DNA of 64,000 nt. Origin: Escherichia coli. Lineage in GTDB: Bacteria; Pseudomonadota; Gammaproteobacteria; Enterobacterales; Enterobacteriaceae. The DNA lies in assembly GCF_009931435.1 (NCBI RefSeq), contig NZ_CP043414.1, one strand, 5' to 3'. Position 1 is the stretch's first letter. Every line of letters begins with the position of its first letter. Positions 11,656-14,600 of this stretch are shown here, in pieces. The position numbers are program-made.

Positions 11656-14600
11656 TTACAATGAAACAAAAACAAACAGTTAGCTGTAAAGTGTGATTTA
11701 CGTCACTCTTTATTAGGATGAGGGCTTCGTTTCCGGTTCATCCGCCATATTGCCGGTATGTTTCCCTTCTTCGGTTCCCTGCCAGCCATGTCGTTGAATT
11801 AATGACAGATGTTCACGGTCCTCAGTAATGATCTCACTTAACATCGCGCTGGTACGTTTATAGACCGCCGCACGGGCTTTGGTGTCGTTCTCAACCATTG
11901 CCATCTCTTCCACCATCTGAATATTAAAACGGCGAAAAACATCGGCGCGCTCCCGTGCTTCATACGGTCCCAGACCTAAACTTTCCAGCGCCAGACGCCC
12001 GGTTTTCAGCGCACCTTCAAAGGTTTCACGCTCTGGCTTTTCAACGCCTGCCTGACGCAAACGAATGTAGTGATCGACATCGCGGGCGCGGGCAATAATC
12101 TGCAGATGCGGGAAATGTTCTTTCACCATCTCCGTCAGTTGCAGGTTGGTTTGTGGATCGTCAATGGCGTTAATCAGCACTTCTGCTTTCGCCGCTCCGG
12201 CAGACTCCAGTAAATCCATCCGCGTGGCATCGCCGTAAAACACTTTCATGCCAAATTTGCGCAAGGTTTCGATATGGTCAGGATCATGATCGAGCACCAC
12301 CATTTTCACCCCGCTGGAGAGCAGTAAACGTCCGGTAATCTGTCCATAACGACCGAATCCAGCAATGATCACCCGCGGCTGTTCTTCATCAATCTCATCA
12401 GCTTCACGCGCTTGTTCGGTAGAAGATTGCTCAAGGCGATTAAGGATCACCAGCAGAATCGGCGTTGCCGCCATCGACAGCGCCACCGCCAGGGTCAGCG
12501 ATTTCGCCCACTCCGGCTCTAGCACATTCGCCATTTGCGCCGCGCCAAATACCACAAAGGCAAACTCACTGCCCTGCCCTAACAGCACCGCAAACCAGCG
12601 ACGCTGTTTATTCGGCACCTGCAACGGTCGGGCAATCAGCCACAGCATAGCGATTTTGATGATGAGGAAACCAAGCAGCAAAATGACAATACGCAATGGG
12701 TTTTCAATCAGCGTGCCAAAGTCTATCGACATGCCAACACCGATGAAAAACAGCCCCAACAGCAAACCTTTAAATGGCTCGATATCGCTTTCCAACGCAT
12801 GGCGGTATTCCGAGCTTGCCAGCAGTACGCCCGCCAGAAACGCGCCCATCGCCATCGACAAGCCGACCTCTTCCAGCAGCAAACCAAAGCCAAACACGAG
12901 GAATAAAGCCACGGCACTAAACACTTCCCGCAAGCCAGAGCGGGCAACAAAACGCAGCGCCGGACGCGTGACATAGCGCCCCAGCAGTACCACCAGCACC
13001 AGTGCACCCGCCACTTTTAACGCCGAGAGAGCAAATGCGCCCATCGTCGTCGAGGCACTGCTCGCCGCCAGTAGCGGGATCATCGCTACCAGCGGGATCG
13101 CGGCGATATCCTGGAACAGCAGCACCGCAAAGGCGCTACGGCCCATTTGTGTCACCATCAGGTTGCGTTCATTCATCGCCTGCATGGCAATTGCCGTTGA
13201 TGAGAGCGCCAGTGTCATGCCGATCAGTTCCGCTACCTGCCAGCGCAGCCCAAGGAACATGCAGAACAGCCCCAGCAGGCCGCCGCAAACCACCATCTGT
13301 AATGCACCACCACCAAACACTGCCGCACGCAACTTCCACAGCCTTTGTGGATCGAGTTCGAGGCCGATAATAAACAGCATCAGCACCACGCCGATCTCGG
13401 CAAAGTGCAGAATAGATTCGGCATCGGTCACCAGTCGCAGCCCCCACGGGCCAATAATGCAGCCCGCGATCAGGTAGCCAAGAACCGAGCCAAGCCCAAG
13501 GCGCACCGCAATAGGTACAATCAGCGCCGCCGAACCGAGATAAATCAGCGCCTGAATCAGCGTATGGCTATCCATGATATGCCTCCTGCCATTCCAGCAG
13601 ACGTTGCTTATAATGACGCGCCTGCCCTTCGAGGGTTTCGTCGTCACAAATAAAGGTGCAGTGCATAGCAAACGGAGGCAGCCAGTTCAGCCCGCAGTAG
13701 ATTGCCGTCGCCTGTAGCGGCTGCGACAGCACATCAAAGCCCGGATGCGCGCCAATCTCAAAATGACTTTCCCCGCCGCCGGTCGTCACCGCCCACAGCA
13801 AATGTTTACCATGCAGTGCCGTGCCGCCGTGACCGTAAGCCCAGCCGTGCGAGAAGACTTTATCGATCCAAAGTTTAAGGAGCGGAGGAATGCTGTACCA
13901 CTGCATCGGGTGCTGCCAGACGATCAGGTCGGCGCGAGACAACGCCTCCTGCTCGGCAGCAATATCGATATTGAAGTCAGGATAGAGTTGATAAAGAGAG
14001 CGAACTTCGACGCCTTCCAGCGTCCTTGCGTGTTCAAGCATCCGTTTATTCGCATGAGAATGATGCGGATACGGATGCGCATAAATTATGAGGATCATAG
14101 TTAACTCGCGTGTTTACGCCTTTGTTTTCCCACAAAGTGTAGTCATATATTCACGCGGCTTATAGTCAATAATATTGATTCAGAAAAAGCAGAAATCTGA
14201 ATCAGTTGTCCAACTCACTCATATCTTTAACCTGATCGCGGTTGATCTGTTCAGTTTGCCCGGTTTGCGCATTTTTGTAAGAAACCAGCCCGGTATCGTC
14301 ATCAACCTGCGGTTTACCATCGGTGACTATCGTTTGGCCATCGGTTGTTCTTACCGCCTGGTTTGAGGAACAGCCAGCCACAGTGAACATTACCGCCGCG
14401 GCGAAGATTGATGTGATCAATACTTTATGTTGCATCGTCTTTTCCTCTGCTTTGCTGTAGTAAGCATTCAGTTTAGGTTAACTGCCTGAAAGCAAGTGAA
14501 AAAACAGAAGATTCTGAGGCGAGTTGCGCCCGGCAACAGCAATGTTACCGGGCGCGGAGGGGTTACTTCTTAATCTGCGCGTGCATTTCCTGCACCGAAA

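What the first reader, a model, noticed from the sequence alone, without database searches (positions are those of the whole stretch)
14099..14562. cai/fix/yaaU block of K-12 is absent between carB and kefF; a DUF903-type lipoprotein gene sits at the junction
In K-12 about 13 kb (caiF, caiTABCDE, fixABCX, yaaU) separates carB from kefF. Here they are 0.46 kb apart and the only gene is a 77-aa lipoprotein (lipobox VAGC) resembling YgdI/YgdR. Either this lineage never acquired or has lost the carnitine operon, which affects anaerobic carnitine metabolism and helps place the strain phylogenetically.
Basis: partly seen in the sequence, partly recalled or inferred. Interest (0 to 1): 0.45.

Follow-up and report, generated by a model that had tools for sequence, protein, structure and literature searches.

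The report
Rare carB–lipoprotein–kefF allele lacking carnitine genes
This E. coli-like strain carries a rare but already catalogued version of the carB–kefF region, in which the 13-kb carnitine-metabolism block is missing and a small, old outer-membrane lipoprotein gene sits in its place; it is an ordinary allele that has been passed around the genus Escherichia by recombination.

Summary
carB (14563-17784, -) and kefF (13568-14098, -) lie 464 bp apart. The only gene between them is an intact 77-aa YgdI/YgdR (DUF903) lipoprotein gene at 14202-14435 (-). K-12 has 13.2 kb there: caiF, caiEDCBAT, fixABCX and yaaU.

The 360-bp lipoprotein segment occurs in only 2 of 5,426 complete E. coli genomes. 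It is not a fresh deletion, because mainstream E. coli has no lipoprotein gene for a deletion to uncover, and there is no IS element or repeat scar.

The arrangement carB–lipoprotein–kefF is the usual one in Enterobacter, Kosakonia, Lelliottia and related genera. Salmonella and Citrobacter carry both the cai block and the lipoprotein. E. coli and E. albertii kept the cai block and lost the lipoprotein.

The window's allele is native to Escherichia: synonymous sites are saturated against other genera, and the downstream spacer is of the Escherichia type. The same allele is found in E. fergusonii, where the gene is identical, in two divergent Escherichia lineages, and in hundreds of E. coli assemblies. 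The closest relatives, with up to 100% identical flanks, carry cai.

Best reading: an old Escherichia haplotype exchanged by homologous recombination. It is therefore a poor phylogenetic marker. Expected phenotype: no anaerobic carnitine reduction. Interest is low.

The parts
13568..14098 (-). kefF, the glutathione-regulated K+ efflux ancillary oxidoreductase. It is the left flank of the variable segment.
   Evidence: NCBIfam NF002044 KefF equivalog scores 265 bits against a cut-off of 210. The gene is 100% identical to the cai-positive strain RMDEC465.
14099..14201 (-). Spacer between the lipoprotein gene and kefF. It is shared with the yaaU–kefF spacer of K-12-type genomes.
   Evidence: 93-95% identical to the K-12 and RMDEC465 yaaU–kefF spacer. 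The multiple alignment shows that homology begins at the stop codon of the upstream gene.
14177..14203 (-). AT-rich hairpin (GATTCAGA...TCTGAATC) directly after, and overlapping, the lipoprotein stop codon. It is present in Escherichia (window, K-12, E. albertii) but not in Citrobacter or Salmonella.
   Evidence: Fold energy is -10.6 kcal/mol with z = -1.85, which is weak. Alignment. A terminator role is inferred, not shown.
14202..14435 (-). Intact 77-aa YgdI/YgdR-family (DUF903) lipoprotein gene. The signal peptide is aa 1-21, the lipobox is VAGC, and the Cys22 codon is at 14370-14372. The mature protein is 56 aa.
   Evidence: Family hits. PDB relatives are 5cai (E = 4.5e-18), 3bdu, 2ra2 and 2jn0 YgdR. 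dN/dS is 0.02-0.16. The exact protein is already in public databases on 245 contigs.
14443..14447 (-). Shine-Dalgarno sequence GAGGA, with 7 nt between it and the lipoprotein ATG.
   Evidence: Read directly from the sequence. The G-rich block is conserved across genera.
14436..14516 (-). Conserved lipoprotein upstream region. It includes a -10-like TAAACT (14470-14475) and the palindrome CAGAAtcTTCTG followed by T6 (14499-14516).
   Evidence: Conserved in 14 loci from 9 genera, whether carB or yaaU lies upstream. The consensus promoter scan found no site, so promoter assignment is inference only.
14526..14555 (-). Strong 13-bp GC-rich hairpin just after the carB stop codon (GCGCCCGGTAACA/TGTTGCCGGGCGC). 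It is probably part of the carB 3' end or terminator. It is present in cai-less genera and, in diverged form, in Salmonella, but absent from K-12-type E. coli.
   Evidence: Inverted repeat I1. Fold energy is -34.5 kcal/mol for 96 nt, z = -5.8. Comparisons.
14563..17784 (-). carB, the right flank. Its last codons (...QIKK*) differ from K-12 (...QIK*), so the right breakpoint lies at about 14570.

Best explanation
The window carries the rarer of two mutually exclusive Escherichia alleles of the carB/kefF junction.

- **Allele A** is found in mainstream E. coli and in E. albertii. It has carB–caiF–caiEDCBAT–fixABCX–yaaU–kefF, and the lipoprotein gene has been cleanly deleted.
- **Allele B** is the one here. 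It has carB–hairpin–lipoprotein–kefF, and the 13-kb block is absent.

Both most simply descend from an ancestor like present-day Salmonella and Citrobacter, which carry both the cai block and the lipoprotein. Allele B therefore looks like an old loss of the block inside the Escherichia lineage, not an event in this strain.

The two alleles share no sequence between the flanks. Homologous recombination in carB and kefF/kefC therefore swaps them as whole cassettes and can never rebuild the 'both' state. That is how allele B came to sit in this E. coli-like background, whose nearest relatives carry allele A.

**Consequences (inferred).**
- No CaiTABCDE/CaiF/FixABCX-dependent anaerobic reduction of L-carnitine or crotonobetaine to gamma-butyrobetaine.
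- No YaaU transporter.
- One extra small lipoprotein, probably in the outer membrane (Ser at +2). It is under strong purifying selection and its cellular role is unknown.

**Shown:** the anatomy, the breakpoints, the distribution, the Escherichia-type divergence and the mosaic flanks.

**Inferred:** the direction and age of the events, the phenotype, the lipidation and localisation, and the promoter.
For: **Anatomy and breakpoints.** Established.

**Rarity.**
- The junction is found in 2 of 5,426 complete E. coli genomes.
- The 360-bp lipoprotein segment is in the same 2 genomes only, even with the sensitive blastn mode.

**Distribution across genera.**
- Enterobacter, Lelliottia, Leclercia, Kosakonia, Pluralibacter, Yokenella and others have carB–lipoprotein–kefF.
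- Citrobacter, Salmonella and Phytobacter have cai-fix-yaaU–lipoprotein–kefF.
- E. coli, E. albertii, Atlantibacter and a few Citrobacter have cai-fix-yaaU–kefF.

**The allele is native to Escherichia.**
- The lipoprotein gene is 78-82% identical in nucleotides to other genera, the same as kefF and kefC.
- dS is at least 1.5 against other genera and at most 0.2 among the Escherichia alleles.
- The downstream spacer and its hairpin are of the Escherichia type and are shared with K-12.

**The same allele sits in several backgrounds.**
- The exact protein is on 245 contigs.
- E. fergusonii (L089) has 234 of 234 nt identical; its KefC is named only E. fergusonii by NCBI.
- Two divergent Escherichia lineages, L084 and L096, carry it.
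- GF4-3, which has K-12-like flanks, carries the L096-type allele.

**The flanks are mosaic.**
- There are no mismatches to the cai-positive RMDEC465 across 12500-14000.
- There are no mismatches to the lipoprotein-type L087 from 14000 to 24000.

**The cai block is old and vertically inherited.** It is 80-85% identical in nucleotides between Citrobacter and K-12, like the flanking core genes at 81-86%.

**No mobile-element signature.** No IS element, terminal repeats or Rfam family was found. Real deletions of the block in other strains leave an IS1 behind.
Against: - The carB–lipoprotein spacer is collinear, base for base in architecture, with that of genera that never had the block. No remnant of caiF or yaaU is visible. 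A never-inserted allele retained or re-imported from an unsampled Escherichia relative therefore fits the sequence just as well.
- The flanks of the window are not close to the divergent lipoprotein-type lineages (5-8% divergence right up to the junction). No donor tract can be pointed to for this strain.
- The direction of exchange with E. fergusonii is uncertain. The shared tract of about 11.7 kb looks E. coli-like.
- I could not survey E. marmotae, E. ruysiae or E. whittamii by name.
- I could not search the rest of the source genome for cai/fix.
Confidence: 0.7

Rival explanations
1. Never-inserted ancestral allele. The carB–lipoprotein–kefF arrangement is the original Enterobacteriaceae state. 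It has persisted in some Escherichia lineage since before the cai block was inserted, and was then passed on vertically or by recombination.
For: - The spacer has exactly the architecture of cai-less genera: carB stop, GC hairpin, C-rich spacer, conserved lipoprotein upstream region.
- There is no scar or remnant.
- At least three species-level Escherichia lineages carry it.
Against: - Salmonella, Citrobacter and Escherichia all have the block at the same site, with core-like divergence. The insertion therefore predates their split.
- An uninserted allele would have had to segregate through that whole period.
Confidence: 0.18
2. Recent deletion of the cai/fix/yaaU block in this strain or its immediate ancestors, starting from the standard E. 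coli arrangement.
For: - Deletions of this block do occur in E. coli: 28 of 5,426 complete genomes lack caiT.
- At least 7 genomes have an IS1 between carB and kefF.
Against: - The standard arrangement contains no lipoprotein gene, no carB hairpin and a different carB 3' end, so a deletion cannot produce this junction.
- There is no IS element or repeat here.
- The same junction is found in hundreds of assemblies and in other species.
Confidence: 0.02
3. Recent horizontal import of the lipoprotein segment from another genus (Citrobacter, Enterobacter, Klebsiella-like) that overwrote the cai block.
For: Many neighbouring genera have the identical gene order, and the protein is 84-90% identical to theirs.
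Against: - Nucleotide identity is only 74-82%, and synonymous sites are saturated against every sampled genus.
- The downstream spacer and hairpin are Escherichia-specific.
- A 12-bp deletion in the upstream spacer (a possible 5' leader) is shared only by the Escherichia alleles.
Confidence: 0.03
4. Assembly artefact: a collapsed or misjoined contig.
For: None specific.
Against: - The same junction is in two closed E. coli chromosomes, a closed E. fergusonii chromosome and many independent assemblies.
- The ORF is intact and under purifying selection.
Confidence: 0.01

Closest known systems
The kefF-adjacent YgdI/YgdR-family lipoprotein of other Enterobacteriaceae (Enterobacter, Citrobacter, Salmonella, Kosakonia and others; unnamed, annotated 'YgdI/YgdR family lipoprotein')
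   Same: - Same position immediately upstream of kefF.
- Same length (77 aa) and the same lipobox.
- 74-90% protein identity.
- The same conserved upstream region.
- In Enterobacter-type genomes the whole carB–lipoprotein–kefF order is identical to the window.
   Different: - Escherichia alleles have a 12-bp deletion in the upstream spacer (a possible 5' leader) and a different downstream hairpin.
- In Salmonella and Citrobacter the gene coexists with the cai block. In Escherichia it never does in the data seen here.
E. coli YgdI (b2809) and YgdR (b2833), with solved DUF903 lipoproteins (PDB 5CAI, 3BDU, 2RA2, 2JN0/3FIF)
   Same: - Same family by the Pfam and NCBIfam models.
- Same size and the same lipobox followed by Ser.
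- Sequence matches to the solved chains at E = 4.5e-18 to 1e-12.
- YgdI is reported as RpoS- and Cpx-regulated and of unknown function (PMC5437024, PMC6153362).
   Different: - It is a separate paralogue at a different locus.
- No DNA-level similarity to anything else in 5,424 E. coli genomes.
- Its regulation and function are untested.
The standard E. coli K-12 carB–caiF–caiEDCBAT–fixABCX–yaaU–kefF locus
   Same: Same flanking genes and the same kefF-proximal spacer.
   Different: - 13.1 kb of carnitine-pathway genes and the transporter gene are present there and absent here.
- The lipoprotein gene and the carB hairpin are present here and absent there.
- The last codons of carB differ.
IS1-associated deletions of the cai block in E. 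coli (for example Ec1120 and FCI23)
   Same: carB and kefF are brought close together, and the cai/fix genes are lost.
   Different: Those junctions carry an IS1 and sometimes a yaaU remnant, and have no lipoprotein gene. They are recent, independent deletions of allele A.

Membership tests
YgdI/YgdR lipoprotein family (NCBIfam NF033216; Pfam PF06004 DUF903) | Scores above the curated cut-offs of the family models | tested here: met
   NF033216 scores 101.9 bits against a cut-off of 42. PF06004 scores 61.3 bits against a cut-off of 27.
YgdI/YgdR lipoprotein family (NCBIfam NF033216; Pfam PF06004 DUF903) | N-terminal signal peptide ending in a lipobox with an invariant Cys; a small mature domain of about 50-60 aa | tested here: met
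   The sequence reads MQHKVLITSIFAAAVMFTVAG|C22-SSNQ, giving a 56-aa mature part. The lipobox is conserved in all orthologues. No dedicated signal-peptide predictor was available.
YgdI/YgdR lipoprotein family (NCBIfam NF033216; Pfam PF06004 DUF903) | SH3-like/Sm-like small beta fold, as in the solved members | not tested
   Only sequence homology to solved chains was checked: 5cai E = 4.5e-18, 2ra2 E = 2.7e-14, 2jn0 E = 1e-12. No structure prediction was run.
YgdI/YgdR lipoprotein family (NCBIfam NF033216; Pfam PF06004 DUF903) | Actual lipidation and envelope localisation | not testable with these tools
   Ser at +2 suggests outer-membrane sorting under the E. coli Lol rule (established knowledge). 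This needs experiment.
Syntenic orthologue of the kefF-adjacent lipoprotein of Enterobacteriaceae | Same position and orientation directly upstream of kefF, with closest homologues at that position in other genera | tested here: met
   More than 60 of the 80 GTDB loci carry the homologue directly upstream of kefF (within 0.1-6 kb), on the same strand. The best protein hits are those genes. The upstream region is conserved.
cai/fix carnitine locus (caiF, caiTABCDE, fixABCX) with yaaU | Presence of these genes between carB and kefF, or elsewhere in the window | tested here: not met
   tblastn with all 13 proteins gave no hit in the 64-kb window. The rest of the source genome could not be searched.
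IS- or mobile-element-mediated deletion or insertion | IS element, terminal inverted repeats, target-site duplication or an integrase at the junction | tested here: not met
   The only repeat of note is the carB hairpin. There are no flanking direct repeats and no other ORF of note. This contrasts with the IS1 junctions.

The most novel reading that the evidence does not exclude
The two junction alleles (cai-fix-yaaU without the lipoprotein, versus the lipoprotein without cai-fix-yaaU) form an ancient polymorphism that crosses Escherichia species boundaries and is kept by selection. Allele B might be favoured, for example, in hosts or environments poor in carnitine, or the lipoprotein itself might confer a niche-specific envelope benefit. 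On this reading the rare allele is not a neutral leftover shuffled by recombination.
Probability: 0.1. Interest if true: 0.5.

Novelty: already known. Interest (0 to 1): 0.2.

Why it matters
- **Phenotype.** It predicts that this strain cannot carry out Cai/Fix-dependent anaerobic carnitine metabolism. About 99.5% of complete E. coli genomes carry caiT, so the strain belongs to a small minority.
- **Teaching case.** A presence/absence difference that looks like a deletion is really an allele swap between two old haplotypes.
- **Caution for typing.** The locus crosses species lines: the lipoprotein gene is identical in E. fergusonii and E. coli. It should not be used as a lineage marker.
- **History of mainstream E. 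coli.** It shows that mainstream E. coli has lost a strongly conserved small lipoprotein that most Enterobacteriaceae keep next to kefF.

None of this changes current understanding of any system.

Tried and rejected
- **Literature.** Six full-text searches (cryptic clade + carnitine, caiTABCDE/carB/kefF, E. marmotae + carnitine, cryptic Escherichia + caiT, clade I + carnitine + phylogroup, and DUF903 + lipoprotein) found nothing on this polymorphism. Only general YgdI notes turned up.
- **Motif scans.** The promoter/terminator consensus scan of 13950-14750 found no site. The Rfam scan found only a chance hit below threshold.
- **A 'both genes' Escherichia intermediate.** The 90%-identity lipoprotein P0006, which lies next to a cai block, turned out to be Citrobacter.
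- **Species survey.** E. marmotae, E. ruysiae and E. whittamii could not be typed by name.
- **cai elsewhere in the two complete lipoprotein-type genomes.** This could not be asked of individual genomes. Only collection-wide counts were obtained.
- **Deletion endpoints.** I looked for direct repeats or microhomology at the block ends in Salmonella and Citrobacter and saw none that was convincing.
- **Donor tract.** I looked for a donor tract in the flanks of the window against the divergent lipoprotein-type lineages and found none.
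Full report
**1. The observation**

The window runs opposite to the K-12 map. The gene order is rsmA, apaG, apaH, ccdB/ccdA, folA, kefC, kefF (13568-14098, -), a 77-aa ORF (14202-14435, -), carB (14563-17784, -) and carA.

The carB–kefF gap is 464 bp. The ORF in it begins MQHKVLITSIFAAAVMFTVAGC and has the lipobox VAGC. It exceeds the curated cut-offs of Pfam DUF903 (61.3 bits against 27) and NCBIfam lipo_YgdI_YgdR (101.9 bits against 42).

K-12 has 13,207 bp at this place, containing caiF, caiEDCBAT, fixABCX and yaaU. None of these proteins has a tblastn match anywhere in the window.

**2. Exact anatomy of the difference**

I compared the window with RMDEC465 (L003), a cai-positive strain that is 98-100% identical in the flanks.

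- On the kefF side, homology ends at window position 14202, the stop codon of the lipoprotein gene.
- On the carB side, homology resumes at 14570, inside the last two codons of carB. The window encodes ...QIKK*; K-12-type genomes encode ...QIK*.
- So 367 bp here replaces 13,141 bp there.

The 103-bp spacer next to kefF is shared by both arrangements. It contains an AT-rich hairpin (14177-14203) that is present in the window, K-12 and E. albertii but not in Citrobacter or Salmonella.

On the carB side the window has a strong 13-bp GC hairpin (14526-14555; -34.5 kcal/mol for the 96-nt stretch, z = -5.8). K-12 lacks this hairpin.

There is no IS element, no flanking direct repeat and no Rfam family in the region.

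**3. How rare it is**

- Only 2 of 5,426 complete E. coli genomes share the junction: 2020CK-00188 and GF4-3.
- The 360-bp lipoprotein segment is found in those same two genomes and nowhere else, even with sensitive blastn.
- caiT is missing from 28 of the 5,426 genomes.
- At least seven of the cai-less genomes have an IS1 between carB and kefF, sometimes with a yaaU remnant. These are ordinary deletions and look quite different from the window.
- The exact lipoprotein sequence is nevertheless already public, on 245 contigs, and is annotated by NCBI.

**4. What the arrangement is**

I scanned one genome per GTDB species with KefF and then ran tblastn with all the locus proteins. This gave three states.

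| State | Gene order | Where found |
|---|---|---|
| i | carB–lipoprotein–kefF | Enterobacter, Lelliottia, Leclercia, Kosakonia, Pluralibacter, Yokenella, Trabulsiella guamensis, Pseudescherichia and others |
| ii | cai-fix-yaaU–lipoprotein–kefF | Citrobacter, Salmonella, Phytobacter |
| iii | cai-fix-yaaU–kefF, no lipoprotein | E. coli, E. albertii, Atlantibacter, a few Citrobacter |

The window has state (i).

About 85 nt upstream of the lipoprotein gene are conserved in all genera, whether carB or yaaU lies upstream. This stretch includes the palindrome CAGAAtcTTCTG followed by a T run, and a -10-like TAAACT. The block therefore sits between the carB hairpin and this region. Salmonella still has a diverged copy of the hairpin in front of its caiF.

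**5. Where the window's allele comes from**

It is not a recent import from another genus.

- Nucleotide identity of the lipoprotein gene to Citrobacter, Salmonella and Enterobacter is 74-82%, the same as for kefF and kefC.
- Synonymous sites are saturated against other genera (dS at least 1.5). Among the Escherichia alleles dS is at most 0.2. dN/dS is 0.02-0.16, so the gene is functional and constrained.
- The downstream spacer is of the Escherichia type.

The allele occurs in several Escherichia backgrounds.

- Many E. coli assemblies carry it. L087 has no mismatches to the window from 14000 to 24000.
- L089 carries a lipoprotein gene identical at 234 of 234 nt. NCBI names its KefC only as E. 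fergusonii.
- An 'unclassified Escherichia' (L084) is 7-10% diverged in apaH and lptD, yet its lipoprotein gene is 98.3% identical.
- Another divergent lineage, L096, also carries it.
- GF4-3 has K-12-like flanks (98-99%) but carries the L096-type lipoprotein allele. The gene is 98.3% identical and the spacer is 100% identical, which indicates an import.

**6. The background of the window**

Its housekeeping genes are about equally distant (roughly 97-98%) from K-12 (phylogroup A), Sakai (E), CFT073 (B2) and SMS-3-5 (F). It clusters at 98-99% with a small set of genomes labelled E. coli, most of which carry the cai block.

- kefF is 100% and kefC 99.5% identical to cai-positive RMDEC465. There are no mismatches from 12500 to 14000. 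Five mismatches then fall in the 103-bp spacer, and about 4% divergence in the first 400 bp of carB.
- To the right, the window is identical to the lipoprotein-type strain L087.

Such mosaics are what homologous recombination in the flanks produces. The two alleles share nothing between carB and kefF, so they can only be exchanged whole, and a 'both' state cannot be re-formed. This explains why the two are mutually exclusive in Escherichia. No selection needs to be invoked.

**7. Lost or never acquired?**

The cai block diverges between Citrobacter and K-12 by the same amount as the neighbouring core genes (80-85% against 81-86%). It also lies at the same site in Salmonella, Citrobacter and Escherichia. 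It was therefore most likely present, together with the lipoprotein, in their common ancestor.

On that view:

- Mainstream E. coli and E. albertii lost the lipoprotein. They share the same clean junction, running from the yaaU stop codon to the lipoprotein stop codon.
- Allele B lost the block.
- Both events are old.

However, the spacer of allele B is fully collinear with that of genera that never had the block, and it shows no remnant. A never-inserted allele therefore cannot be excluded. I put it at about 0.18.

A recent deletion in this strain is excluded.

**8. Function**

By established knowledge of the cai/fix pathway, the strain should be unable to convert L-carnitine or crotonobetaine to gamma-butyrobetaine anaerobically. 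It also lacks YaaU.

The lipoprotein belongs to a family with solved structures but no assigned function. Its paralogue YgdI is reported to be RpoS- and Cpx-dependent (PMC5437024, PMC6153362). The Ser after the lipidated Cys suggests outer-membrane sorting. Promoter, regulation and role remain inference.

**9. Verdict**

This is a real and correctly described feature, but an ordinary one. It is a known, annotated gene in a rare, old allele of a variable junction, moved about by recombination. Interest is low. Its main value is as a phenotype predictor and as a warning against using the locus as a phylogenetic marker.

Noticed in passing
window 10405-10955 (-): A chromosomal ccdB/ccdA toxin-antitoxin pair lies between apaH and folA (Pfam CcdB 109.8 bits, CcdA 93.1 bits). 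K-12 has nothing at this site. Sakai and CFT073 have the pair. GF4-3, SMS-3-5 and E. fergusonii L089 instead have a DUF4291 gene, a hypothetical gene and a ccdA fragment there. This is a second multi-allelic junction only 3 kb from the first.
   Followed up: partly
L089 (E. fergusonii CP057504.1), aligned to window ~7300-19000: The E. fergusonii locus is about 98% identical to the window from pdxA to carA (about 11.7 kb) but only 85-91% identical just outside it (lptD, surA, dapB). The tract is E. coli-like for every gene. This suggests an interspecies recombination tract that includes the lipoprotein allele.
   Followed up: partly
window 11713-17784: kefC, kefF and carB of the window are 94-96% identical to K-12, Sakai, CFT073 and SMS-3-5. 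Neighbouring genes are 97-99% identical. So divergence is locally raised around the variable junction, in cai-positive relatives of the window as well.
   Followed up: partly
window 21334-22542 (-): A 402-aa ORF lies between rihC and ispH. It is annotated in relatives as 'XAC2610-related protein' (DUF8339 in the precomputed hits) and has no Pfam hit in my scan. It is absent from K-12, Sakai, CFT073 and SMS-3-5 at this position. rihC next to it is only about 92% identical to most reference strains.
   Followed up: no
window 14499-14516 (-) and homologous positions in L009, L023, L041 and others: The palindrome CAGA(A/G)nnTTCTG followed by a T-rich run is nearly invariant upstream of the lipoprotein gene in 9 genera, whichever gene precedes it. 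It could be a small terminator for the upstream gene or an operator.
   Followed up: no
window 33077-35005 (+): A fimbrial usher appears to be truncated or split. A 318-aa ORF matches only positions 29-321 of the 549-position Usher model, and is followed by a 319-aa ORF with no Pfam hit. The fimbrial operon is probably decayed.
   Followed up: no
L068-L072, L077 (Kluyvera) and L018, L028, L034-L037 (Enterobacter, Leclercia, Kosakonia): In several genera 3-6 kb of other DNA lies between the lipoprotein gene and kefF. The lipoprotein/kefF spacer is therefore also an insertion site in other Enterobacteriaceae.
   Followed up: no
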